This document shows, piece after piece, positions 1,692 to 33,347 of a stretch of 64,000 nt of DNA. The notes under the pieces are model-generated. The model saw only the letters and a list, made by a program, of their open reading frames with translations, did not search any database and was not told where the DNA came from. A program made the translations under genes and the position numbers. This DNA comes from a candidate division FCPU426 bacterium (GTDB lineage: Bacteria; Oederibacteriota; Muellerivitia; Muellerivitales; Muellerivitaceae): positions 1-64,000 of the forward strand of contig CAVTWJ010000010.1 of assembly GCA_963738405.1 (NCBI GenBank), given 5' to 3'. Each line of letters begins with the position of its first letter. Position 1 is the stretch's first letter.

Positions 1692-4600
1692 GTGAATTCG
1701 TCACTGAAGTTCCTGAAATCGTTGTTACGGTTTCAAGTACAGTCGTTGATGCGCGTTTTGAGCATCAACTTGTCCGCTTTTATTTCTATTGGCCTACTCC
1801 CTATTGTGTTTTTTATAGCCGGCACTTCTTTTGCTCAGGTCGTAGGCACCTCCAAGTATTTTCAAAACGATCCGCCCACCATCTATACGTCCATCGCAAC
1901 AACCTATGGTCCTTTGTCCCCAGGGACCGGGAATTGCGGTTTTCCTTCCGGGTCTTATGACCCGAACTATTACGCCGCCATCATCTCGAATGATTACCAA
2001 AACGGAATAGCCTGCGGAGCTTGTATCGCGGTGACGGACACGGCGGTTGGCGGTGCGGCGGTCACAGTAATGGTGGTGGATAATTGCCCCAGCTGCTCAA
2101 CAGCGAACCAGCTGGATCTAGGGCCAACAGCTTGGAACACCCTGACGAACAACGCCTTGCCTGGCATTGCCAACATCCAATGGAACTTCATCACCTGCCC
2201 CACCAGTTTGATGACAGGTGACCCATCCCACAACATCACCTACCAATGGAAATCGGGCTGCGGAAGTGGTTACGCCCCGATTCAATTCATGGACATGCTG
2301 GTTCCCATCGTTGCTGTGGGATACAGCACGAGCAGCAGCGGACCCTTTACGGCATTGGTGATGGGCGCGAACGGCGTTGGCGGAGATGAATATTGGGGAA
2401 CGTCCAACGGCAACCTTGGAGGAACGGGCCCCTTTTATTTTGACTTGACGGCTGCGGAAGGAGGCTCGATTACGATCGGAGGCTTGAGTGTGGGCGCCTG
2501 CGGCGTGACGAACGCAACGAGCTCCCAATTATTTGGAGGAGGGCCCACGAATACCCCGGGTCCTCCAACGGCAACTCCGACCATTACCAATACCCCTGCC
2601 CCCATGCCGACTAATATTGTAAACGGCGTCTCCTATTCCAATTGCAGCGTCAATCAACCCAGTGCTGTTTCCCAGCAACAGGAGCTTCTGGCCCAGGGAA
2701 CAGGTTTGGATTACACCATGGTGAGCGCCAATTGCGGATCGGCTCTCACAGTCACCCTACCCCCTGGCGCAACCCCGGTCACGGCCTTTCTTTATGTTGA
2801 ATACCAAAACGGGGCTGATGTAGCCCCGAATACGACGGCGATCAATTTCAATGGCTCTGGCACGGGTACAGGCACTGCCACTGGAGCGGTTTCTTATGTG
2901 GGATGGACCCAGACCTGGTACAGCATTCGTTATGCCATCAACCCTGGTGCTATATCCAGCGCGGGCCAGGCTTCCTACACGGTGAATACAGGAGCCAATC
3001 CCGATTCCTGCCAAGGTGTGGGGCTGATGGTGCTCTACAAAAACCCAGCTGAGACCACGAACAACGTGATCGATATCGCCGATGGGGAATTTGCCTGGCA
3101 TTACGAGGAAAACGGGGAAGTGGCCTATGGGACTCCTCCCTACGATACGCGGATGAATTGGACCTGTTTGGGGTTGAGCTGTGGAACGGCCCAGACCCGG
3201 TTTTCCGCGCTGGGAGGAGCACAACAGTGCACGGGAACCCCCGATCAATTTAGCGATATTATCGCCCAGTACGGAACCGGGCCCGGCAACGGGGGAGCCT
3301 ATGGCCCCTGGAATGGAACACCCATTTGGAGCGGTCCTCCGGGAGCCTTGAACTGCCAAAACGGAACCAACGTCAACAAAAATGAAATCGTCAGAGATTA
3401 CCGACCACCCCAAGCGGACTTCAACAACAATGGACAAAGCTTTGAGTGGGGTATGACCCTCAACGGCAATCCCCAAAAGAGTTCCTATTGGCAGCAAGCC
3501 CTTATTTCCCAATATATTTGCAACCCCGTGACCCAATGTGCAGTGACAGATAATTTCATGAGCGGTGCCACCTACAGCGGCCCGCCACCGGGATGGATCA
3601 TCGGTCAAGACCCTCCAGATCAGGGGAGTTGGGTGCAAGGAACCAACGGCGTTTCATTTGTCGGCGGGGTCTATACCCAGTGTTTGGATGAGAACAACCA
3701 GTTGTTGAATACTCAGGTCGCCAGCGGCCCCGGGACCATGAATGTGGAGGTTTGCCAAACGAACCTACAGGGTGGAGCGCCCACTGGAAACGAGGAAGGG
3801 ATTGAGTGGGACATCAATCAAAGCACGGGTACTGGCTATGGTTTGAATTTCAACGCGGATAACGCGGCGAATACCGATAGCTCCTTCACTTTCATTAAAT
3901 ATGGCTCCGGTGGAACCACTATCAGTTCCACAACGGTTACCTTACCCGCCAACAGCGCCTTGGCGGCCTGCCCGGCCTGGATTCAACTGATCATCAATGG
4001 CTCCAACTTCCAGGTTTCGGTGGGTCCAACCCAGGGGTCCAGCACCTGGACGCACACCTTTACCGATGCCACCTATACCACCGGGTTGATGGGTCTAAGC
4101 GACTTTGGCTGCCCGAACTCGCGATTCGAGTATTTTCAATGGAATGGGGTTTGCACGACTCCAACTCCGACCAATACACCAACGAACACCCCGACCAATA
4201 CACCCACCCGTACCCCCACGGTTACCCCGACCTACACTCCGACTTATACTCCAACCATCACCCCTACTCGTACGCCTACACCCACTCCGACCAATACACC
4301 TACCAATACACCCACTCCAACACCTACCAATACCCCCACTCGGACTCCAACCAACACACCAACGATTACCCCCACAAATACCTTTACTATTACTCCGACC
4401 AATACTCCGACTGTTACCCCAACGGTTACCTGGACCTATACACCCACCCTAACGCCTACCAATACCCCCACGAAGACGCCGACTATTACACCGACGAATA
4501 CCTTTACGGTTACCCCAACCAACACTCCAACTAATACCCCAACCATTACCTGGACCTATACACCCACCGTGACGCCCACAAACACGCCCACCAAGACGCC

Positions 4601-7269
4601 AACTATTTCTCCTACCAATACTTTCACGGTGACACCCACCAATACCCCGACCAATACACCAACCATCACCTGGACTAATACCCCGACGGTTACGCCTACC
4701 AACACCTTCACAATTACCCCGACCGTCACTCCGACCAATACACCCACGGTCACTTGGACTTATACCCCGACCGTGACTCCGACTAATACCTTCACCAGGA
4801 CACCTACAGCTACCCCGACCAATACACCGACTGTCACTTACACACCCACCCCGACGGTGACACCCACCAATACTTTCACACCAACGCCGACCATTACGCC
4901 TACTAATACCTTTACCATCACTCCTACCAATACCCCAACGAATACGCCGACTATCACCTGGACCAATACCCCGACGGTGACCCCCACCAATACTTTCACC
5001 CCAACGCCGACCATCACGCCGACGAATACACAGACCTTCCAATTTACTCCGACGATAACCAATACCCCGACCCAAACGGCGACTCGCACCAATACCAATA
5101 CTCCCACGAATACCAGCTACGGTTACCGCGACCAATACCTGGACTCACACACCCACCAATACTAATACTGCTACACCTACTGTTACACCGACCAATACTT
5201 ACACGGTTACCAACACGCCCACTCCCACAGTCACACCTACCAATACAGTCACCCCGACACCTACCATTACGCCCACGAATACACAGACCTTCCAATTTAC
5301 TCCCACAATAACCAATACTCCGACCCAAACGGCGACTCATACCAATACCGTTACCCCCACGAACACCTTTACGATTACCGAAACCCCAACCCCAACCAAT
5401 ACACCCACCGTTACCAATACCGCAACTCCCACCATTTCACCTACGAATACCTTCACCATTACCAATACCATCAGCCCTACCAATACTTTCACGATCACAC
5501 CCACTATTTCTTCGACAAATACCTTCACTGTTACTAATACGCCCACACCTACTCTTACGCCGACGAATAGCTACACACCCACCCCAACCTTCACGCCCAC
5601 CAACACTCCAACCGAAACCTTAACTGCCACGCCCACCAGTCCTTGGACCGCCACTAATACAACTACTCCAACGGCGACTTACACGGTGACGACTACCTTT
5701 ACACCGACCTTTACCTACACCGTTACGACTACCCCGACCTTTACCTTTAGTTCCACGCCTACCTGGACGCCTACCTGGACCTTAACCTCCACAAATACCT
5801 TTACAGTAACGCCCACCTTTACCGCCACGACGACACCGACGGTCACCCATACCATTACGCAAACCTTCACCCCTACCACCACCCCGACCGCCACGACCAC
5901 CTTTACCTTCACCAGCACCCCCACCCCCACTTTCAGCCCGACAGCCACCCAGACCCCCACGGCGACCTTTACCCCCACGCCCAACGTGAACATTTCCAAG
6001 ACCGTTTCCGAGACCGTGGGTAATTCGGGCGATATATTGACCTATACCCTGGTGCTTTCGCCTAGTTTGGGACAGGCTAATTCGGTTGCGGTGACGGACA
6101 TCCTTCACAACTACCTGTCGTTTGTGAGCTTTGGGCCAGTGCCTGCGGGGGTCAATGTCCCAACTTTTGCCAACAATACACTCGTTTGGACCCTGGCGAC
6201 TATGCCAACAACCCCGGTTACCCTGACCTTCCAGGCTCAGTTGGCTGCTTATGTTCCTCAGGGAACCAACATTACCAATACCGCCCAATTAACCTACGCG
6301 GGTCTGGCTAATCCCAAACAGGCCTCGGCCAATACCACCATGGCGACAACCTATATGGTGCATATCGGGGTCTATAACGAGGCGGGGGAACTAATCAAAA
6401 ATATCTATGTCCAGGAACTTTCCCAGGAAGTCACGAATTTCAACATTCTTCAAACGCCCACCATTACGACCCTGAACGGAAAGGTTTATGTGGAAGTGAA
6501 CGGACAGGCCATCGCCAGCTGGGATGGAACCAACCAAAACGGCGACCCGGTTCTTAACGGGTCCTATTATGTGAAGGTGGACAATACCGATCCCTTTGGA
6601 GTGACGACGACCGTATCGCAAGTGGTGACGGTCAACCGGCATCTGGCCAAGGTGCAGGTCAATATTTTCAACGAGGCGGGTGAAATCATCCGCCATCTGA
6701 CAAGCTATGTGGACGCGGCGGACGCCTTCAGTATCAACAACGTGAAACTTTCCAGCTCGGTGCTGCAGCCGACCACGGATACGACGCCGACGACGGGTAA
6801 CACGAACATCTTGATGATCAATATGGGCAACGGGGAGTCGGTGACCTGGGATGGAACAGACGACCAGGGAGCGATTGTAACGAACGGGCATTATGACGTG
6901 GAGATCCACTACGAGGATGGGGCGGGCGGTGAACAAGTGGTGACAAGAGGATTGCTGGTAGAAACCACAGGGTCCACCCATCCAAATAATACGATTCTCG
7001 CCATGCCGAATCTTCTGAACTGGAAAACGAGCTATCAGACGGTGATTGAGGTGAACTCAACCGAGGCCTATACACTGCGGGTGAAGGTGTACGATACTGC
7101 GGGAGAATTGCTGAAGAATGTGCCTGTGGTACCTAACGGCGTTGAAAACCAGATGACGGCGGATTTCTCAAACGTGGCCAGCGGGCTGTATTTAACGCTG
7201 GTAGAAGTGATCAACAACACGGGCGGGGTTGAGAAGCGTCAAGCGCTCAAAATCATCGTCGTTCGGTAA
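1692..7269 (+). pseudogene. Giant expansin-like / Thr-Pro stalk / FlgD-like surface protein, paralog 2, with +1 frameshift near 5115 (real lesion or sequencing error)
   Basis: ORFs 1692-5165 and 5686-7269 join into a ~1858-aa protein colinear with 12008-17035 if one base near 5115 is removed (aat acc [a] gct acg gtt). Confidence 0.75.
4150..5985 (+). repeat. Low-complexity Thr-Pro (TPTNTPT/TPTNTFT) coding repeat
   Basis: Degenerate ACN-CCN-ACN-AAY codons, with an internal duplication at ~5011-5085 and ~5263-5338. Confidence 0.9.
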
Positions 7270-12007: not shown

Positions 12008-15000
12008 ATGAATGCCAAATTTGCAAAACTTCTCAAACCGTCCCCGCGAAGTTATTCATCTAAACTTCGATGGGTTTCCTTTTATCTTTCTTGTTTTCTC
12101 CTCGTTCCCGCCGTTTCCTTCCCGCAGGTCGTAGGTTCCTCCCAGTATTTTCAAAATGATCCTCCGACCATCTATACGTCTATCGCCACGACCTACGGGC
12201 CCTTGTCGCCTGGAACGGGGAATTGCGGGTTTCCTTCCGGGGCCTATGACCCCAACTATTACGCCGCTATCATCTCAAATGATTACCAAAACGGAATAGC
12301 CTGCGGTGCTTGTATCGCGGTAACGGACACGGCAGTTGGGGGCGCGGCGGTCACGGTAATGGTTGTGGATAATTGCCCCAGCTGTTCGACCGCGAACCAG
12401 TTGGACTTAGGACCCACCGCCTGGAACACCCTGACGAATAACGCGATGCCGGGGATCGCCAACATCCAATGGAACTTCATCCCTTGCCCCACGAGCTTGA
12501 TGACGGGCGACCCGACCCACAACATCATTTACCAATGGAAATCGGGCTGCGGCAGCGGCTACGATCCCATTCAGTTCATGGACATGCTGGTTCCGATCAT
12601 AGGTGTGGGTTTCAGCACCAGCGCCAGTGGACCCTTTACGGCCTTGGTGATGGGGGCCAACGGCGTTGGCGGGGACGAATATTGGGGAACGCCCAGCGGC
12701 AATCTCAATGGCACCTTTGGGCCTTTTTATTTTGACGTGACAGCGGCGGAGGGCGGATCGGTGACGATCGGGCCTTTGAGTGTAGGGGCCTGCGGGGTAA
12801 CGAATGCGACGACCTTCCAATCATTTGGCGGCGGCCCCACGAACACACCGGGTCCTCCAACAGCCACTCCCACAATTACTAACACCCCGGCCCCCATGCC
12901 GACCAACATCGTTAATGGCGTCTCTTACTCCAATTGCAGTGTCAACCAACCTAGCGCGGTTTCCCAACAGCAAGAATTTCTAGCCCAAGGAACTGGGTTG
13001 GATTACACCATGGTGAGTGCCAATTGCGGCTCGGCCTTGACTGTCACCCTTCCACCCGGAGCCATTCCTGTGACCGGCTATCTTTATGTCGAATATCAAA
13101 ATGGAGGGGCTGATGTGGCTCCTAATACCACTGCGATAAACTTCAATGGATCCGGTACTGGGGCGGGTACTGCCGCTGGGGCGGTCTCATACGTTGGATG
13201 GATCCAGACTTGGTACAACATTCGTTACGCTATTAACCCTGGCGCCTTATCCAGCGCTGGACAGGCTACCTATACGGTGAATACAGGAGCCAATCCCGAT
13301 TCCTGCCAAGGGGTGGGACTCATGGTTCTATACAAAAACCCGGCGGAAACCACGAACAATGTGATCGATATCGCGGATGGGGAGTTCGCCTGGCATTACG
13401 AGGAAAATGGGCAAGTGGCCTATGGAACTCCTCCTTACGATACACGCATGAATTGGACCTGTTTGGGATTGAGCTGCGGAACGGCCCAGACCCGGTTTTC
13501 CGCCCTCGGCGGGGCTCAGCAATGCACGGGGGTACCGGATCAGTTCAGTGACATTATCGCCCAGTACGGTACGGGTCCCGGCAATGGGGGAGCCTACGGC
13601 CCCTGGAACGGCACGCCCATTTGGAGCGGGCCTCCGGGAGCTTTGAACTGTCAAAACGGTTCCAATGTGAACAAGCATGAGATCGTCAGGGATTACCGAC
13701 CGCCCCAAGGGGATTTCAACGACAACGGGCAGAGTTTCGAATGGGGTATGACCCTCAATGCCAATCCCGCAAAGAGCACCTATTGGCAGCAGGCTCTTAT
13801 TTCCCAATATATTTGCAACCCCGTGACGCAATGTTCGGTGACCAATAACTTCATGGGTGGCGCCACTTACAGCGGTCCGCCTCCGGGATGGATCGTCGGC
13901 CAAGCCCCTCCGGACCAGGGATCCTGGGTTCAAACCGCCAGCGGTGTTTCGTTCGTGGGCGGGGTTTACACCCAATGCCTTCAAGAAAACAATCAGTTAT
14001 TGAATACCCAGGTAGCAAGCGGGCCAGGGACCATGCAGGTGGAAGTTTGCCAAACCAGCCAGCAGGGCGGCGCGCCTACTGGAAACGAGGAAGGCATCGA
14101 GTGGGACATCAATCCCAGCACTGGCGCGGGCTATGGTTTGAATTTCAACGCCGATAACCCGAACAACGCGGATAGTTCCTTCACCTTCCTTATCTATGGT
14201 TCAGGGGGAACTACCATCAGCTCAACCACGGTAACCTTGCCGGCCCATAGCGCCTTGGCGGCCTGCCCGGCCTGGATCCAACTGATCATCAACGGTTCCA
14301 ACTTCCAGGTCTCGGTGGGGCCAACCCAGGGATCGAGTACCTGGACGCACACTTTCACCGATTCCACCTATTCAACAGGTTTGATGGGTCTGAGCGACTT
14401 TGGGTGTCCGGAATCGACTTTCGAGTATTTCCAATGGAACGGAGTCTGCACGATCCCAACACCCACCATAACCCCTACCAATACCCCCACCCCTACGCCT
14501 ACCAACACGCCCACCAACACCCCTACCCGAACCCCGACTCCCACACCAACCTATACCCCAACCCCTACGCCTACCATTACACCCACCAATACCTTTACCA
14601 TTACGCCGACCAATACCCCGACGAATACTCCGACTGTTACTTGGACCTACACCCCGACGGTGACACCCACCAACACTTTTACCCCAACGCCTACGCCAAC
14701 ACCCACCAATACCCCCACTGTGACATGGACCTATACACCTACAGTGACGCCCACTAACACGTTCACCCCGACTCCTACGCCTACGCCGACTAATACCTAC
14801 ACGGTTACCAACACACCTACACCCACAGTGACGCCCACCAACACCTTTACCCCTACACCCACCATTAGTCCCACGAATACGTTTACGATTACACCCACCA
14901 ATACCCCGACGAATACCCCTACCGTAACTTGGACCTATACACCTACCATTTCACCTACCAATACCTTCACCCGAACGCCTACCCCTACGCCGACTAATAC

Positions 15001-17035
15001 CTACACGGTTACCAACACGCCTACCCCCACAGTGACGCCTACCAACACCTTCACGCCAACGCCTACTTTCACCCCTACGAATACGCCAACTATAACCAAT
15101 ACTCCGACACCGACGGTTACACCCACAAATACATTCACACATACACCGACCATCAGCCCTACCAATACATTTACCATCACCCCAACGAATACCCTCACCA
15201 ATACCTACACCATTACAAACACCCCCACACTCACAGTTACCCCTACCGATACCTTCACGGTCACTCCTACTCGAACTCCAACGAACACCTATACTATTAC
15301 GAATACTCCCACACCGACAGTCACCCCTACGGATACATTTACGGTTACTCCAACCATTAGCCCCACGAACACCTTTACGATTACCTTAACTCGCACCCAA
15401 ACGAACACCAATACCATTACCAATACCCCAACTCCCACGGTTACACCCACCAACACATTTACACCTACAGCGACATTCACGCCTACGAATACACCCACCC
15501 AAACCCTTACCGCCACGCCCACCAATGCTTGGACGGCAACTTATACCAAAACTCCCACGACGACCTACACGGTCACGCCAACCTTTACGCCCAGCACAAC
15601 CCCAACCCGAACCTATACCTTTACGATGACCTTTACCCCCACCACCACCCCGACCGCCACAACCACCTTTACCTTTACCAACACCCCCACCCCCACCTTC
15701 AGCCCGACGGCTACCCTGACCCCCACGGCGACCTTTACGCCCACGCCCAACATCAATATCGCCAAGATGGTCTCCGAATCGGTTGGTAATTCAGGCGATA
15801 TCGTGACCTACACGATTCTCCTTTCACCGACCTTTGGGCAGGCCGACTCGGTGGCGGTGACAGACGTGCTTCCCAACTACATTTCATTCGTGAGCTTTGG
15901 ACCCGTACCTGCGGGGGTCAATGTACCGACGTTCACCAATAACACGTTGGTTTGGACCCTGGCGACCATGCCGGCAAGCCCTGTTACCCTGACCTTCCAG
16001 GCCCAATTGGCCTCCTATGTGCCCCAGGGAAGCAGCATTACCAACACCGCGCAATTAACCTATTCGGGACTCGGTAGTCCCAAGCAGGCCTCGGCGCAGA
16101 TGACCATGGCGACAACTTATAAAGTGCATATCGGGGTTTATAACGAGGCTGGGGAACTGATCAAAGACATTTATATTCAGGAACTGTCGCAGGAAGTCAC
16201 GAATTTCAACATTCTCCAACAGCCGACTATCACGACCCTGAACGGGAAGGTGTATGTGGAAGTGAACGGACAGGCCATTGCCAGCTGGGACGGCACCAAC
16301 CAGCAAGGGGCGCCGGTGCAAAACGGGTCCTATTATGTGAAGCTGGATAACACCGATCCCTTTGGTGTGACTTCGACGGTAACCCAGGTGGTGACGGTCA
16401 ACCGCCATTTGGCCGAGGTGCAGGTGAATGTCTTCAATGAGGCGGGTGAAATTGTGCGCCACCTGACGAGTTACGTGGCCGATTCCGGAGCTTTTAGCGT
16501 CAATAACGTGAATCTTTCAAGCTCGGTGATACAGCCGACAACGGATACAACCCCGACGGAGGGCAACACGAACATCGTATTGGTTAACTTGGGGAGTGGT
16601 CAGGCGGTGACCTGGGATGGGACAGATGATCAGGGTGCGATTGTGACGAACGGCCATTACGATTTGGAGATCCATTACGAGGATGGCGGGGGCGGGGACC
16701 AGGTGGTGACCAGGGGATTGCTGGTAGAGACGACGGGGTCTACCCATCCGAATAATGTGGTCTATGCCATGCCAAACATGATGAACTGGAATACCGGCTA
16801 CCAAACCATTTTTGCCGTGAGCTCAACCGAGGTTTATACGATGAGGGTGAAGGTTTACGACATCGCCGGGGAGTTGATCAAGGATGTTCCGGTGGTGCCC
16901 AATGGTCAGGAAAACCAGGTGAAGGCTGACTTCTCAAACGTGGCTAGCGGTGTCTATTTAGGACTTGTGGAGCTGATCAACAACACGGGCGGGGTGGAAA
17001 AGCGTCAGGCCCTTAAAATCGTGGTTGTTCATTAA
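12008..17035 (+). CDS. Giant expansin-like / DUF3344-like / lectin-like / Thr-Pro stalk / DUF11 / FlgD-like surface protein, paralog 3 (intact, 1675 aa)
   Basis: Signal peptide, expansin D1 motifs ([35 protein letters not shown]), TPT stalk, C-terminal Ig modules. Confidence 0.85.
14450..15750 (+). repeat. Low-complexity Thr-Pro coding repeat
   Basis: ~430 aa of TPTNTFT/TPTVTPT units. Confidence 0.9.
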
Positions 17036-28965: not shown

Positions 28966-29790
28966 TTGGATTTTTATCACTTCTCCAAAAAGTCTTCCAA
29001 GCCGCTTCTTCATCTATCCCACGCGAACGGGTTTCTTCCCCCCACCTACAAAAGAGCGCTCCAACCCCTCGAAAAGCATTTCCAAATCATTTCTTTAAAA
29101 ATTCGCCCTCTCTGGGAAGGCGAGAATCCGAACCAACTCAAGCATTGGAGCCTCTTCGCCGATGATTTAATCCGGGGTTTGGATTCCATTGGAGCCAAGG
29201 GTATAGCCGCGGTCGGGCATAGTTTGGGCGGGGTGGTGACCCTCTACGCTGCGGTAAAGCGGCCCGATTTGTTCAGCCGAATTGTGCTGTTAGACCCGAC
29301 CATGCTGGATCCCGCGCGTTTGTGGAAAATCCGCCTGATGCGGTTGCTGGGTTTGGAAACGCGCCGGTCACTGGTGGAAGGCGCCGTGAGACGTCGCCGC
29401 CATTGGAGAAGCGTCAAGGAAGCCTTTTTATCTTTTAAAGAAAAACCTCTGTTCAAATCTTGGCCGAAGGAAACGGTTCTCTCTTATGCCAAGAGCCTGA
29501 TCCGCCCATCGGCTGAGGGGGGAGTGGATTTAGCCTATCCACCCGAATGGGAAGCCCGGATTTACCAGACAATTCCCACGGATGTCTGGGATTACGCCCG
29601 GCGGTTAACCCGGCCCACCCTGGTCTTATCCGGGGAAAATTCGGACGTTTTCACCCCTGACAGCCGGGAAGCTTTCCGCCAGGCCAATCCTGCCGTTCAG
29701 GTGGAAACCATCTTGGGAGCCGGCCACCTGCTGGCCCAGGAGAACCCACTGGAAGTGGGGGCAAGAATGGCAAAATTTTTAAAGAACTAA
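28966..29790 (+). CDS. Alpha/beta hydrolase
   Basis: HANGF, GHSLGG nucleophile elbow, GAGHL. Confidence 0.85.
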   Translation: MDFYHFSKKSSKPLLHLSHANGFLPPTYKRALQPLEKHFQIISLKIRPLWEGENPNQLKHWSLFADDLIRGLDSIGAKGIAAVGHSLGGVVTLYAAVKRPDLFSRIVLLDPTMLDPARLWKIRLMRLLGLETRRSLVEGAVRRRRHWRSVKEAFLSFKEKPLFKSWPKETVLSYAKSLIRPSAEGGVDLAYPPEWEARIYQTIPTDVWDYARRLTRPTLVLSGENSDVFTPDSREAFRQANPAVQVETILGAGHLLAQENPLEVGARMAKFLKN

Positions 29791-29830
29791 GATGTTGGAA
29801 GGTCGGTAGTAGCAGGAGTCGGCGGGAGTC

Positions 29831-29873
29831 CTACGGCCAATTTTTACCTGCATTTGGAAAAAATTGGCCGTAG
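29831..29873. repeat. Perfect 15-bp inverted repeat overlapping the start of the tandem array
   Basis: CTACGGCCAATTTTT (29831-29845) / AAAAATTGGCCGTAG (29859-29873), 13-nt loop. Confidence 0.9.
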
Positions 29874-30307
29874 TGGCACAATCCCCGTAGTGGCACAATC
29901 CCCGTAGTGGCACAATCCCCGTAGTGGCACAATCCCCGTAGTGGCACAATCCCCGTAGTGGCACAATCCCCGTAGTGGCACAATCCCCGTAGTGGCACAA
30001 TCCCCGTAGTGGCACAATCCCCGTAGTGGCACAATCCCCGTAGTGGCACAATCCCCGTAGTGGCACAATCCCCGTAGTGGCACAATCCCCGTAGTGGCAC
30101 AATCCCCGTAGTGGCACAATCCCCGTAGTGGCACAATCCCCGTAGTGGCACAATCCCCGTAGTGGCACAATCCCCGTAGTGGCACAATCCCCGTAGTGGC
30201 ACAATCCCCGTAGTGGCACAATCCCCGTAGTGGCACAATCCCCGTAGTGGCACAATCCCCGTAGTGGCACAATCCCCGTAGTGGCACAATCCCCGTAGTG
30301 GCACAAT
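29868..30307. repeat. Perfect tandem array, 17-bp unit CCGTAGTGGCACAATCC, ~26 copies
   Basis: 25 full copies plus 15 nt. No spacers and no variant copies seen. Confidence 0.97.
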
Positions 30308-30513
30308 AGGGTCGTATAATCGGGCTTTACCACTGTTGTCCAAATAAGATGAAAGACAAGGCTAATGCCCCGATTAGCCACAGATACATGGGATGCACTT
30401 GATAGGCCAAGAAAAGGCCTTAAAGTTTGTGGTTTTAAATCCCATGAATCCTATGCATCTGTGGCAAATTATTTTGGACGGGTCTTGGGCTTTATATTAT
30501 TGGGAGGTTATTT

Positions 30514-31335
30514 ATGTCTTCTAAAGCCAATGATCAGAAAACCGAAGATACGTATGAGAAGGAAACTAGGGATTCTTCCTCAATCCTCTGGCTTTTCCTC
30601 TGGTTGGCCACTCTTTACCACGCCGGTGTAACCGCCTGGGCCCTGCTTTCAACGGCCCAACTTCCACCTGGCTACCAAGTTCCCCCCATGTGGGTGGAAA
30701 ACTTCCGGCAGGGCCCCACTTCCGATTCTTTCTGGATTTACATCATTGTCCTTGGGGTCAATATCCTTCGGGAAAGCTGGTTTAAAAGCCAAAAGACCTA
30801 CGTGCCATCCCTCCTCTATCCGGAATTCAAATACGGCAATGTCGCCGTGGTTTTATGGGCGGGTTTGTGGGTTTTTAGCCAATATGGCCATGACCAGGGT
30901 TGGTTTCCCGTGCCGGATCAGGTGAATAAAACCTTTGGAAGCTGTCTGATTCTTTGGATCGCCCAGCATTTGATGATCAGGCTCTTTAAGAGCACGACAT
31001 TTATGGAAGCTTTTAAGGATGTGCCAAAGCAAACCAAGGCCGTAGTTCCAAAACCCCATACCCCGCCACCCAGCCCTCAAGCAAGCTTGGCGGTGTCTGG
31101 GCCAGCCCCGAAGAAAGTGGTTTCCAACAATAGTGATTTGGCCGGGAAGCTATTGGACTATATCCGCCAGAACGGACAAGCCAAAACCAGCGGAATGATG
31201 AGTGTATTGGGCAGTCCAAGACGGACGGTGATAAGGAACCTGAACAAGTTACTTAAGGATGGGCGGTTGATCAGGGAGGGTTCTGGCGCAGGCGCGGTTT
31301 ACCGGCTCAATGAGAACCCAAAAGGTGGAAAATAG
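30514..31335 (+). CDS. Membrane-anchored protein with C-terminal winged-helix DNA-binding domain
   Basis: GGAGG RBS, ~4 hydrophobic segments, Pro-rich linker, wHTH-like LLDYIRQNG...SPRRTVIRNLNKLLKDGRLIREGSGAGAVYRL. Confidence 0.8.
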   Translation: MSSKANDQKTEDTYEKETRDSSSILWLFLWLATLYHAGVTAWALLSTAQLPPGYQVPPMWVENFRQGPTSDSFWIYIIVLGVNILRESWFKSQKTYVPSLLYPEFKYGNVAVVLWAGLWVFSQYGHDQGWFPVPDQVNKTFGSCLILWIAQHLMIRLFKSTTFMEAFKDVPKQTKAVVPKPHTPPPSPQASLAVSGPAPKKVVSNNSDLAGKLLDYIRQNGQAKTSGMMSVLGSPRRTVIRNLNKLLKDGRLIREGSGAGAVYRLNENPKGGK

Positions 31336-31450
31336 GATTAATTGTGGATTTGGGTTCGAGTCCAACCCGGGGAACATTACTTGGGGTTCGAACTTAGAAT
31401 ATCTAATTCAAGAACTGTAAAGAATATGGTTTGCAAAAAAGGAATTGATA

Positions 31451-32020
31451 ATGGACGAATATTATTCCTGTGAATTTTGCCATTTTGATTTTAAAAGCTT
31501 TAAGGAAAGATCTAAATGCCCAGGTTGTGGGGTCGAAATCAACGAATTACCGCTTTTTATAGCCGTGAAAAGAGAAGCAAAAAAATTTTCTGTTCAAGAT
31601 ATGTTAGATAAGTTGGGGTGGAAACGCCCGAATTATAACGATATGACTTATTTGGATATTGAGTCCGACATCGAAGAAGTTACTTATGTTTTGGATTTCA
31701 GAGAGGTGAAAATTCTGTTTGAAGTTTTGGATATTGATTGGAATGAGGCGCTTGGATTTATTATTGGGAAAGAAAATGTTTCGCTAAGCGCAACTTCGGA
31801 TGATCGTCCAACTTACAAAATCATAAATTCACAAATGACGAAATTAGGTTTCAGTAATGAAAAGTTGGCGGTTGAACTCGATTTTGATGCAGATGAAATT
31901 GCTAACGTCCAAGTGCCGAATTCTTCTTTTGATAAATGGGCTTTGAAAAATATGTTAAATCTCGCAAAGATACTTCAAATAAACCCAGTTGCGTTTATTC
32001 ATAAGGTTATTGAGGGTTAA
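31451..32020 (+). CDS. Hypothetical zinc-ribbon protein with XRE-HTH-like helical regions (AT-rich)
   Basis: CEFC...CPGC followed by two HTH-like segments. Confidence 0.6.
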   Translation: MDEYYSCEFCHFDFKSFKERSKCPGCGVEINELPLFIAVKREAKKFSVQDMLDKLGWKRPNYNDMTYLDIESDIEEVTYVLDFREVKILFEVLDIDWNEALGFIIGKENVSLSATSDDRPTYKIINSQMTKLGFSNEKLAVELDFDADEIANVQVPNSSFDKWALKNMLNLAKILQINPVAFIHKVIEG

Positions 32021-32049
32021 ATTCTTTTAGAAATGGAAAGGTATTTTCA

Positions 32050-32250
32050 ATGAGTTTATTTTTCCCCAAAAATTGGCAATGCAGAAAATGCAAAAGTGAT
32101 CTTATGAGAGAAGATGGAGTATTTGACTGCCCTCATTGTGGGACTTATTTCCCAAGGGCAGGAACCGGTGCGATTTTGAGATTTTGGCTATATTTGGTGA
32201 TGGGTCTTCTTTGGCTATTTGTTTGGTATTTTACGACTAGTCACAGATAG
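32050..32250 (+). CDS. Small zinc-ribbon membrane protein
   Basis: CRKC...CPHC plus C-terminal TM helix. Confidence 0.55.
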   Translation: MSLFFPKNWQCRKCKSDLMREDGVFDCPHCGTYFPRAGTGAILRFWLYLVMGLLWLFVWYFTTSHR

Positions 32251-32353
32251 AAGAGTTAATAACGAAATATTTTGAATTTAATGGTTCGCAAATCGTTTAA
32301 TCCGGGGAACCGTTAAAATTTTACTGACTTTGAGACTAAAAAACGGATAAATC

Positions 32354-32953
32354 ATGCAAACTAAAACTATAAGTGATGCAGAAAATTTATATCGGTGGGG
32401 TTATTGGTGGGCATACGGGAATCCTCGAAAAAAAGATGGGAAAAAGGCTTTTGAGTATTGGAATAGAGCGGCGCTTCTAGGGCATGTTCTCGCTCAATTT
32501 TATCTTGGCACATGTTATGACTGGGGTATTGGAACAAGGAGAAACTTAAAACTTGCTAAGAAATGGTATGAAAAAACGGCAAGATTGGGCGTGATAGGTG
32601 GTCAATATAATTTGGCGTTTATGTATCGGGATGGCATCGCGGTTCGAAAGGATTTGAGAAAAGCGTTTAAGTGGTTTAAAGCAGCGGCCCTACAAGGTGA
32701 CTCGGAGGGCCAAAGAGATTTGGGCTACTGTTATCACGAAGGTCGAGGAATTAGGAAAAATTTCAAAAAAGGTTTTTATTGGTATTCCAAGGCTGCAAAA
32801 CAGAATGATTCTAAAGCGCAATGGAATTTAGCATTGTGTTATTTAGAAGGAGATGGCATAAAACCTAATGAAAAAAAGGCAGAATTCTGGTTAAAGAAAG
32901 CGGCTAAAAACGGACACAAGAAAGCAAAGGCCAAACTTAAATCACTGAAGTGA
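32354..32953 (+). CDS. Sel1-repeat protein
   Basis: Repeats such as AQFYLGTCYDWGIG, GQYNLAFMYRDG, AQWNLALCYLEGDG. Confidence 0.9.
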   Translation: MQTKTISDAENLYRWGYWWAYGNPRKKDGKKAFEYWNRAALLGHVLAQFYLGTCYDWGIGTRRNLKLAKKWYEKTARLGVIGGQYNLAFMYRDGIAVRKDLRKAFKWFKAAALQGDSEGQRDLGYCYHEGRGIRKNFKKGFYWYSKAAKQNDSKAQWNLALCYLEGDGIKPNEKKAEFWLKKAAKNGHKKAKAKLKSLK

Positions 32954-33228
32954 TCGAATTATCTGGAATTTAATGGTTCTAAAATCCTTCTGCACTGAAG
33001 CTCCGAAGGACAAGTCGTGCAGAATGGGAAGGACTCAGATTCTGCAAGTTTCTAAATTTTGAGGCGGATCACTTTTCAAACGGTGAATTCTTCCAAACTG
33101 GATTAAAAAGAACCTAAGAGTGGACAACCCTTCTCGCCGGAAAACCACCGCAAATTGTGAAACCAATGGCTGAATTTTTGTCGGGGTACAACTTCAAACC
33201 TAATTTCTTTTAAATATGACGTACGCCC

Positions 33229-33256
33229 TTGACTCCCAAAGGTCGAGGGTTAAACT
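33229..33256 (+). promoter_or_regulatory. Putative sigma70 promoter of the aminotransferase-serA operon
   Basis: TTGACT-16-TAAACT. Confidence 0.5.
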
Positions 33257-33347
33257 ACCCGCAATTCTTTATGAATTTAAGGGGAGACCGCCCAAAGCGG
33301 GCTGGGTTTTTATTTTGAGGCCCTGATGGGGCGAAAAGAGGTTTCCA

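What the first reader, a model, noticed from the sequence alone, without database searches (positions are those of the whole stretch)
29868..31335. Perfect 26x17-bp array beside a membrane-anchored winged-helix gene: candidate DNA-membrane tether or array-binding system
Seen: ~26 identical copies of CCGTAGTGGCACAATCC, about 200 bp upstream of a gene encoding ~4 TM segments, a Pro-rich linker and a C-terminal wHTH. There are no spacers, no cas genes, and no rep or parA nearby. Known: 17-22 bp direct-repeat arrays bound by wHTH proteins occur as plasmid iterons; membrane-embedded DNA binders (ToxR, CadC) and chromosome anchors (RacA/ram, MatP/matS) exist but have different architectures. Inference: the wHTH binds the array cooperatively and tethers the locus to the membrane, or the array titrates the protein, with copy number acting as a tuning knob. 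I do not recognise this pairing as a described system.
Basis: partly seen in the sequence, partly recalled or inferred. Interest (0 to 1): 0.85.

Follow-up and report, generated by a model that had tools for sequence, protein, structure and literature searches.

The report
Membrane-anchored DNA binder with docking array
A small, undescribed family of membrane-embedded DNA-binding proteins in uncultured soil bacteria always sits just downstream of many copies of its own probable docking motif, here blown up into 26 perfect 17-base repeats, which would pin that stretch of chromosome to the cell membrane.

Summary
In detail: 25.9 perfect copies of a 17-mer at 29868-30307, 206 bp upstream of a 273-aa gene (4 TM helices, disordered Pro-rich linker, C-terminal winged helix).

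The unit's 9-bp core TGGCACRAT occurs 8-42 times within 1 kb upstream of 12 of 13 non-redundant full-length homolog loci. It occurs 0 times inside the genes and once in about 52 kb of the other flanking DNA.

The 13th locus and two distant homologs carry altered cores together with altered recognition helices. Motif columns are nearly invariant where spacers differ by about 25%. Sister genomes without the gene have no clusters.

Perfect 17-bp tandem arrays occur at only three loci, all in one genus, and they differ in unit, copy number and orientation. They are therefore recent, recurrent expansions of an older dispersed site cluster.

The module lies in a 3.4-kb insertion that is absent from two sister species, and a tRNA-Asn 3' fragment follows the gene.

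Best reading: the protein binds its own upstream sites, autoregulates, and tethers the locus to the membrane. Binding, tethering and array length are untested. An earlier scan note describes an analogous ParB-like module elsewhere in this genome.

The parts
29791..33200 (.). Insertion of about 3.4 kb relative to sister genomes G003 and G001. There, hydrolase and aminotransferase are separated by only about 115-190 bp. The right border is approximate.
   Evidence: synteny by blastp of ORFs; the intergenic alignment regains similarity near 33205-33330
29831..29873 (.). Perfect 15-bp-stem hairpin (CTACGGCCAATTTTT / AAAAATTGGCCGTAG). Its right arm supplies the first 6 bases of the array. Homologous hairpins flank the arrays in G002:C96 and the remnant in G001:C28.
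   Evidence: sequence read; related loci printed
29868..30307 (+). Array of 25.9 perfect copies of CCGTAGTGGCACAATCC. It holds 26 head-to-tail copies of the core TGGCACAAT.
30315..30320 (+). Perfect TATAAT hexamer 7 bp after the last core copy. It is a candidate -10 box at the array's edge (inference only; the consensus scan did not list it because no -35 match accompanies it).
   Evidence: sequence read
30514..31335 (+). Gene for the 273-aa membrane-anchored winged-helix protein.
30574..30993 (+). Four-helix transmembrane domain (residues about 21-160). Invariant polar residues are H36, E87, T140, C144 and Q151. The predicted outer loops are conserved (LPPGYQxPP, GWFPxPD).
30994..31128 (+). 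Disordered Pro-rich linker (residues 161-205).
31129..31308 (+). Winged helix-turn-helix (residues 206-265). The recognition helix is RRTVIRNLNKLL.
31353..31373 (+). Orphan copy, identical at 21 of 21 bases, of the 3' end (T-arm plus 3' acceptor strand) of this genome's tRNA-Asn(GTT). The true gene is on contig C14.
31445..32953 (+). Three accessory ORFs of the insertion (191-aa zinc-ribbon protein, 66-aa zinc-ribbon/TM protein, 199-aa Sel1-repeat protein). They are not conserved beside any homolog.

Best explanation
The 273-aa protein is an integral inner-membrane protein. Its cytoplasmic C-terminal winged helix recognises the 9-bp core TGGCACRAT as a monomer-sized site. The DNA just upstream of its gene is a dense set of these sites.

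Because the protein is fixed in the membrane and hangs on a flexible linker of about 45 residues, many copies docking on 8-43 neighbouring sites must hold this locus against the membrane with high avidity. Sites next to the promoter would also let the protein shut off its own gene once the sites are filled. Protein supply would then be matched to the number of sites.

In this window a single site plus 8 bp of spacer has recently been amplified into 26 identical 17-bp units, probably by slippage or unequal exchange. That raises the number of docking sites.

Shown here: the anatomy, the gene-motif association, motif/helix co-variation, selection on the motif, presence/absence, and rapid array turnover.
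Inferred: DNA binding, membrane tethering, autoregulation, and any benefit to the cell or to the inserted island.
For: (1) Association. In 13 non-redundant full-length loci, 12 have 8-42 TGGCACRAT copies in the <=1 kb upstream. There are 0 copies in the genes and 1 in about 52 kb of remaining locus DNA (raw data).

(2) Co-variation.
- L033 (helix HRRTVIRNLKKLV) has TGTCACAAT x5 plus three TGTCACA, and no TGGCACAAT.
- The G014 homolog (PPRTVNYWQKKLL) has TTGCGCGA x8 plus one inverted copy. Three of them lie about 21 bp apart just before the start codon.
- The G004 homolog (TTRAVNYCQQKLL) has TTCGCGAT x4 plus TTGCGCGAT x1.

(3) Selection. In close pairs, motif columns are identical at 72/72 and 123/125 positions. 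Spacer columns are identical at 164/228 and 392/525.

(4) Presence/absence.
- G003 (same genus, about 99% complete, no homolog) has 30 singletons and no cluster.
- G005 and G006 (no homolog) sit at the level of the reversed-pattern control.

(5) Fold.
- The winged helix is confident in the model.
- The best solved relative by sequence profile is the centromere-binding protein AspA (E 7e-6). It is also the top Foldseek hit (1.7e-3).
- Generic wHTH matches reach Z about 9-11.

(6) Topology. The four helices and the K/R distribution place the wHTH in the cytoplasm.

(7) Precedent.
- Membrane-integrated CadC clusters where its DNA sites are (PMC6320335, abstract).
- Noc recruits its DNA sites to the membrane (PMC4331003, abstract).
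- StbA of R388 binds ten 9-bp direct repeats upstream of its own gene, plus smaller arrays elsewhere. It autoregulates and segregates the plasmid without its own NTPase (10.1101/2022.04.29.490116, abstract and passages).
Against: - No experiment or read data bears on binding, tethering or array length.
- Perfect tandem arrays occur at only 3 of 13 loci, so a high tandem copy number is not needed for the family's function.
- This window's locus lacks the 2-4 promoter-proximal sites seen at most homologs. Autoregulation here rests on one TATAAT at the array's edge.
- Of 9 hits that cover only the wHTH yet keep the family's helix, only 1 (L014, 7 copies) has the motif cluster. Two of the 9 have <=205 bp of upstream DNA. 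Others are preceded by unrelated repeat arrays.
- A 478-aa homolog in G004 shows no repeated upstream word.
- The TM domain has invariant polar residues inside its helices and conserved outer loops. That fits a sensor better than an inert anchor.
- Small secondary clusters lie before other genes, for example 6 copies before a TMEM175-family gene. That fits an ordinary regulator.
- The total motif count in the genome (63) is not far above some scrambled 9-mers (4-53). Only the clustering is exceptional.
Confidence: 0.5

Rival explanations
1. The protein is an ordinary signal-responsive one-component regulator. The polytopic membrane domain senses a ligand or membrane state. The wHTH represses or activates its own promoter and a few other genes. 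The many sites are just an elaborate operator, and membrane attachment of the DNA is a by-product with no role.
For: - The TM domain has invariant H36, E87, T140, C144 and Q151, plus conserved outer loops.
- Most loci have 2-4 direct sites within about 100 bp of the start codon.
- Secondary clusters lie upstream of other genes.
- CoxC has the same domain order (N-terminal membrane sensor, C-terminal DNA-binding domain) and binds three direct repeats overlapping a -35 box (PMC11347149, abstract).
Against: - 8-43 sites spread over up to 750 bp are far more than known operators of this kind use.
- No target other than the gene's own upstream region is conserved between G000, G001 and G002.
- Tandem expansion arose at three loci separately.
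Confidence: 0.28
2. The perfect 26-copy array is a neutral or selfish minisatellite: a recent slippage expansion of one operator plus spacer. Its length in the assembly may also be wrong. Copy number has no function.
For: - 100% identity of all copies implies very recent origin or homogenisation.
- Only 3 of 13 loci are tandem.
- The positionally equivalent loci in G000 and G002 differ in unit, number and orientation.
- No reads could be laid on the locus.
Against: - Three separate arrays share the same 17-bp period and the same core. A 3-copy mini-array with 17-bp spacing exists at G002:C56.
- The G002 arrays contain a few variant units, which a collapsed or invented repeat would not show.
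- It is the only such array in the whole assembly.
- Non-tandem loci keep many sites under selection.
Confidence: 0.12
3. The array and gene are a maintenance, exclusion or recombination-accessory module of a small integrative island. The sites serve the island (for example retention at the membrane when excised, or control of recombination at the adjacent tRNA-Asn-like site) rather than the host chromosome.
For: - The module lies in a 3.4-kb insertion absent from G003 and G001.
- A tRNA-Asn 3' fragment follows the gene at most loci, including the 33%-identity homolog.
- Other orphan fragments abut large serine recombinase genes.
- L029 has two fragments bracketing two ORFs.
- Proteins are only about 50% identical within a genus whose neighbouring genes are 68-96% identical.
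- The distribution is patchy: 7 of 32 genomes of the order.
Against: - No recombinase, integrase or replication gene lies within 6-10 kb of any of the 12 loci examined.
- No homolog was found in viral contigs, phage records or plasmid records.
- Two loci are syntenic between G000 and G002.
Confidence: 0.1

Closest known systems
StbA / stbS of plasmid R388 (NTPase-independent segregation and repressor)
   Same: - The site is a 9-bp motif repeated directly.
- The largest array (ten copies in two sets) lies upstream of the protein's own gene, and smaller arrays of 2-5 lie elsewhere.
- The protein is a small HTH that autoregulates.
- No dedicated partition NTPase is required (10.1101/2022.04.29.490116, abstract and passages).
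   Different: - StbA is soluble, plasmid-borne and PadR-like, with an 11-bp period.
- Here the protein is an integral membrane protein on a chromosomal insertion.
- Here the sites occur in both orientations with variable spacing, or at a 17-bp period, and reach up to 43 copies.
AspA, centromere-binding winged-helix protein of Sulfolobus plasmid pNOB8
   Same: It is the best solved relative of the wHTH by profile (E 7e-6 over residues 208-263) and the top Foldseek hit. It binds a site upstream of its own operon and coats DNA (as summarised in the StbA preprint's discussion).
   Different: AspA is a soluble dimer of about 90 aa that works with ParB and ParA. Here there is no partner gene, there is a 4-TM domain, and the sites are asymmetric and monomer-sized.
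Membrane-integrated one-component regulators (CadC/ToxR; CoxC)
   Same: One polypeptide joins a membrane domain to a DNA-binding domain. CadC gathers at its DNA site in the membrane (PMC6320335, abstract). CoxC has the same domain order and binds direct repeats (PMC11347149, abstract).
   Different: - ToxR and CadC have an N-terminal OmpR-type domain, one TM helix and a periplasmic sensor.
- CoxC has MHYT plus LytTR domains.
- None of these domains is detected here.
- Their operators have 1-3 sites, not dozens.
Noc and its NBS sites (Bacillus subtilis)
   Same: A sequence-specific DNA binder that brings its sites to the membrane (PMC4331003, abstract).
   Different: Noc is a ParB-like CTPase with a weak amphipathic helix, and its sites are scattered round the chromosome. 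Here the protein has a true 4-TM anchor and a wHTH, and the sites are concentrated beside the gene.
Array plus ParB-like HTH/4-TM protein noted earlier by this scan in the same genome (e1-753778, e1-7780504)
   Same: It follows the same logic: a row of 9-bp direct repeats directly upstream of a gene for a membrane-embedded DNA-binding protein. I re-found its array (6 exact CTGTTAAAC copies at about 21-bp spacing, G000:C4:46643-46770) and a long ORF after it.
   Different: It has an unrelated DNA-binding head (said to be ParB-like, N-terminal), a much longer protein, a different motif and regular 21-bp phasing. I detected no sequence similarity to this family (one search found no look-alike).

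Membership tests
Plasmid iteron / Rep origin | Adjacent initiator with Rep-type (two winged-helix) domains | tested here: not met
   Pfam gives only sub-threshold single-HTH hits (DeoR HTH 16.5 bits, AbiEi_4, DIP2311_C). No Rep family is hit. The model shows one wHTH plus four TM helices.
Plasmid iteron / Rep origin | Located on a plasmid or other replicon | tested here: not met
   The module lies between chromosomal clpX/hydrolase and serA genes. tblastn finds no match in 72,556 plasmid records.
Partition centromere plus centromere-binding protein (ParR/parC, TubR/tubC, AspA, StbA/stbS) | Array of short repeats upstream of the binding protein's own gene | tested here: met
   12 of 13 loci carry the same core and the 13th a variant core.
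Partition centromere plus centromere-binding protein (ParR/parC, TubR/tubC, AspA, StbA/stbS) | Partner NTPase (ParA, ParM, TubZ) in the same operon | tested here: not met
   No gene family other than the wHTH gene is shared across the 12 loci clustered, apart from synteny between close relatives. Pfam scans of 34 neighbouring ORFs, plus 6 neighbours in this window, show no NTPase of these kinds. StbA is an exception among known systems.
Partition centromere plus centromere-binding protein (ParR/parC, TubR/tubC, AspA, StbA/stbS) | Protein binds the repeats and stabilises the replicon | not testable with these tools
   This needs EMSA and stability or localisation assays.
ToxR/CadC-type membrane regulators | N-terminal OmpR-type wHTH, single TM helix, periplasmic sensor domain | tested here: not met
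   The domain order is reversed and there are four helices. There is no Trans_reg_C hit and no periplasmic domain.
CoxC-type MHYT-LytTR regulators | MHYT membrane domain and LytTR DNA-binding domain | tested here: not met
   Neither family appears in the Pfam scan at E <= 0.1. The fold of the DNA-binding part is a winged helix.
ParB/Noc superfamily | ParB-type HTH with N-terminal CTP-binding domain | tested here: not met
   There is no ParB-family hit in Pfam or NCBIfam.
CRISPR array | Repeats separated by unique spacers; cas genes | tested here: not met
   The units abut with no spacer. PADLOC gives only E about 0.004-0.01 matches of the wHTH to CARF-linked models.
tRNA-targeting integrative element | Orphan tRNA 3' fragment as attachment-site repeat | tested here: met
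   The fragment is identical at 21 of 21 bases to the 3' end of tRNA-Asn. It recurs after the gene at most loci.
tRNA-targeting integrative element | Recombinase gene and a second repeat bounding the element | tested here: not met
   No recombinase lies in the insertion. No second copy of the fragment is on the contig. Serine recombinases abut other orphan fragments in relatives.

The most novel reading that the evidence does not exclude
This is a self-contained, motor-free 'membrane centromere'. An integral membrane protein fastens its own locus, and the small island that carries it, to the cytoplasmic membrane through dozens of docking sites. Supply is self-measured by autorepression, and site number is a fast-evolving avidity dial.

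Together with the unrelated ParB-like/4-TM module in the same genome, it would show that this uncultured phylum has evolved direct DNA-to-membrane attachment at least twice. That is the kind of anchoring the replicon model of Jacob, Brenner and Cuzin (recalled, not searched) once proposed for segregation.
Probability: 0.3. Interest if true: 0.88.

Novelty: new variant of a known kind. Interest (0 to 1): 0.74.

Why it matters
Direct, permanent attachment of defined chromosomal sites to the membrane by an integral membrane protein has not been described in bacteria, as far as four searches of the held literature show. Known tethers use peripheral helices (Noc) or polar scaffolds. Known membrane-integrated regulators use one to three sites.

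This family offers a compact two-part system, a 9-bp site and a 273-aa protein, that could be tested in E. coli within weeks. If it works, it could serve as a tool to pin DNA to membranes.

The three independent expansions to perfect 17-bp arrays also give a natural series for asking how the number of sites affects avidity, expression and inheritance.

If it proves to be only an autoregulated sensor, it is still a new membrane one-component family with an unusually large operator.

Tried and rejected
- Reads. One public run held 8% of the sampled words. Following the tool's advice I laid 30225-31300, and no contig covered it. No RNA holder was listed. Array length, heterogeneity and expression therefore stay open.
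- Homodimer prediction. No verdict.
- TM-domain fold. The domain was modelled alone (pLDDT 78.7) and compared with 48,161 chains. The best Z was 8.4, to designed helical repeats and STAT coiled coils, which is within the range expected by chance for helical bundles. No fold could be assigned.
- Whole-model Foldseek found nothing at E <= 0.001.
- Sigma-54 promoter reading of TGGCAC was rejected. The position where TTGC should follow has T in only 8 of 136 sites.
- RNA reading. Rfam at gathering thresholds finds only tRNA-Leu in the window.
- Phage, plasmid or defence origin. There were no homologs in IMG/VR, INPHARED or PLSDB. PADLOC and PHROGs gave only weak wHTH matches.
- Genome-contig scan. 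It found no relative, probably because near relatives are left out there. The genome search was used instead.
- Origin or terminus placement. dnaA is on another contig and the GC skew of C10 and C3 is uninformative.
- Literature search for the core motif returned only primers.
- The ESM Atlas gave only unnamed HTH_24 clusters at 0.84-0.90.
- The minus-strand ORFs across the array are translation artefacts of the repeat.
Full report
OBSERVATION.
The array is exactly as described. Tandem Repeats Finder reports 25.9 copies of a 17-bp unit at 29868-30307, with 100% matches and no indels (sequence). The unit occurs nowhere else in the 3.18-Mb, 23-contig assembly. No comparable tandem array exists elsewhere in that assembly.

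The array begins inside the right arm of a perfect 15-bp-stem hairpin (29831-29873). It ends 7 bp before a TATAAT hexamer (30315-30320) and 206 bp before the ATG of a 273-aa ORF with a GGGAGG ribosome-binding site.

Upstream lie tRNA-Leu, tig, clpP, clpX and an alpha/beta hydrolase. Downstream lie three small accessory ORFs, then an aminotransferase and serA.

THE PROTEIN.
Pfam and NCBIfam give no family. There are only sub-threshold HTH hits at residues 205-265.

AlphaFold2 on a 24-row alignment (pLDDT 78) gives four long helices, a disordered segment at 170-205 and a winged helix at 206-265. Hydropathy and the K/R distribution fit N-in/C-in, so the winged helix faces the cytoplasm.

The closest solved relative of the winged helix is AspA, the centromere-binding protein of pNOB8. 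It is best by profile (E 7e-6) and tops the Foldseek list (1.7e-3). VIA-align confirms a generic winged helix with Z of 9-11.

The membrane domain has no assignable fold. It does have invariant polar residues (H36, E87, T140, C144, Q151) and conserved outer loops.

The family is small. There are 24 clusters at 90% identity. Among 1.84 billion representatives, 13 score below 1e-30. Seven of the 32 genomes of the order have a match. No homolog appears in viral, phage or plasmid collections.

THE DECISIVE COMPARISON.
I collected homolog loci from relatives' genomes and from metagenome contigs. I dropped the following before counting:
- duplicates (L030 = L029; L032 and the G025:C43 fragment share L031's pattern);
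- L034, which has no upstream DNA;
- all hits that cover only the wHTH.

That left 13 full-length loci. Two pairs among them are close relatives (L011/L037 at 96% protein identity, L038/L039 at 89%).

Twelve of the 13 loci have 8-42 copies of TGGCACRAT in the <=1 kb upstream. None has a copy inside the gene. One copy lies in about 52 kb of the other DNA held for these loci.

The usual layout is not tandem. It consists of modules of 2-3 copies on one strand, a 25-40-bp spacer that is often palindromic, then 1-4 copies on the other strand. Another 2-4 direct copies lie within about 100 bp of the start codon. Same-strand neighbour spacings peak at 8, 12-13 and 18-19 bp.

CO-VARIATION.
The thirteenth locus, L033, has no TGGCACAAT. 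It has five TGTCACAAT and three further TGTCACA, and its protein has HRRTVIRNLKKLV in place of SPRRTVIRNLNKLL.

The 33%-identity homolog in G014 (PPRTVNYWQKKLL) has TTGCGCGA eight times plus one inverted copy. Three of these are about 21 bp apart just before the start codon. A G004 homolog (TTRAVNYCQQKLL) has TTCGCGAT four times and TTGCGCGAT once.

SELECTION AND PRESENCE/ABSENCE.
In the two close pairs, motif columns are identical at 72/72 and 123/125 positions. Spacer columns are identical at only 164/228 and 392/525. The aligner may anchor on the repeats, which favours this result somewhat.

G003 is in the same genus and is about 99% complete. It has no homolog and 30 isolated copies with no cluster. 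G005 and G006 match the reversed-pattern control.

In this genome, 48 of the 63 copies lie in five clusters: 26, 11, 6, 3 and 2. The clusters of 26 and 11 precede the two paralogs. The cluster of six precedes a TMEM175-family gene. Secondary clusters in G001 and G002 lie beside IS elements or a toxin-antitoxin pair and are not conserved in position.

THE TANDEM ARRAYS ARE DERIVED.
Perfect or near-perfect 17-bp arrays occur only here (26 copies), at G002:C24 (17.4 copies) and at G002:C96 (42.8 copies, opposite orientation to its gene).

By synteny, this locus corresponds to G002:C96, and the paralog on C3 (dispersed sites) corresponds to G002:C24. The hairpin and the bases before it are alignable between this locus and G002:C96, but the arrays differ in unit and direction. 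The expansions are therefore separate and recent.

The two G002 units are nearly the same as each other, which suggests exchange between loci.

A MOBILE SETTING.
In G003 and G001 the hydrolase is followed after about 115-190 bp by the aminotransferase, whose promoter region is conserved. Here about 3.4 kb is inserted: hairpin, array, gene and three accessory ORFs.

Eighteen bases after the stop codon lies a 21/21 copy of the 3' end of this genome's tRNA-Asn. The same fragment follows the gene at most loci, even in G014 in variant form. Each of four relatives checked has one true tRNA-Asn and several orphan fragments, three of which abut large serine recombinase genes.

Family proteins are only about 50% identical within a genus whose neighbouring genes are 68-96% identical. 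The protein tree does not follow the synteny. No recombinase, integrase, Rep or partition NTPase lies near any locus.

MECHANISM.
The evidence is comparative but coherent: the winged helix most likely recognises the 9-bp core. If it does, and if the protein is in the membrane, multivalent docking must hold the locus at the membrane. This is what happens on a smaller scale for CadC (PMC6320335, abstract) and Noc (PMC4331003, abstract).

Sites by the promoter suggest autorepression, as in StbA/stbS of R388. That system shares the 9-bp direct repeats, the large array before the protein's own gene, the small arrays elsewhere and the lack of a dedicated NTPase.

I put about 0.75 on cognate binding and 0.5 on the whole statement. 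The main rival is a plain membrane sensor-regulator of the CoxC kind (PMC11347149, abstract). The conserved polar residues of the membrane domain and the secondary clusters support that rival.

AGAINST.
- Eight of nine wHTH-only ORFs that keep the family's helix lack the cluster. Two of them have almost no upstream DNA. Several are preceded by other repeat arrays that I did not explain.
- One 478-aa homolog shows no array.
- This window's locus lacks the proximal sites.
- The array's length is unverified.

RELATION TO EARLIER SCAN NOTES.
The scan had already noted, on another contig of this genome, an array of 9-bp repeats before a gene for a membrane-embedded ParB-like protein (e1-753778; orphan array e1-7780504). 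I re-found that array and ORF. The two protein families are unrelated by sequence. The same logic therefore seems to have arisen twice in this phylum. That note is an unchecked lead, not support.

Noticed in passing
window 31353-31373; also G000:C3:23150, G001, G002, G014, G024, G025 (L071-L088): Orphan copies of the last 21-31 bases of tRNA-Asn(GTT) are scattered through these genomes. Three of them abut large serine recombinase genes (one recombinase ORF appears to run across the fragment). In L029 two fragments 1.3 kb apart bracket two ORFs. This looks like a tRNA-Asn-targeting integrative or cassette system.
   Followed up: partly
G000:C2:22500-22760 and G000:C2:161800-162030: Two copies of a composite intergenic module. 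Each has a series of different short perfect palindromes, then 2-3 TGGCACRAT copies, then a long AAAACCCTTATTTTT...AAAAATAAGGGTTTT hairpin. The latter word also occurs upstream of L038 and L039.
   Followed up: no
L012/L053 (G014:C2), L014, L023, L041-L043: Other short motifs are repeated 6-25 times in the same upstream regions of relatives, for example GGATAAACCGCCCACA, TTCCGGCGGCAATTC and CCCGGTGTTATTTT. They do not track the wHTH helix, and their binding partners are unknown.
   Followed up: no
window 4164-5071, 5441-5780 and 14471-15384: Long imperfect tandem repeats with periods of 12-204 bp, rich in ACC/CCN codons. They probably encode Thr/Pro-rich repeats of large surface proteins.
   Followed up: no
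proteins P0049, P0055, P0058, P0068: Proteins of 345-1194 aa match the family's wHTH 4-7 times each, so they carry tandem arrays of this winged helix in one chain. Their context could not be fetched.
   Followed up: no
G001:C28:429350-429700 (L065): A hairpin of the array-flanking type is followed by two TGGCACAAT copies and a third 144 bp on. It lies next to an IS30-like transposase ORF and a toxin-antitoxin-like pair, 570 bp from a contig end. It may be a decayed or unassembled second locus of G001.
   Followed up: partly
window 29779-30381, minus strand: Three overlapping ORFs of 147-200 aa run through the array. They are the repeat read in three frames, not genes.
   Followed up: yes
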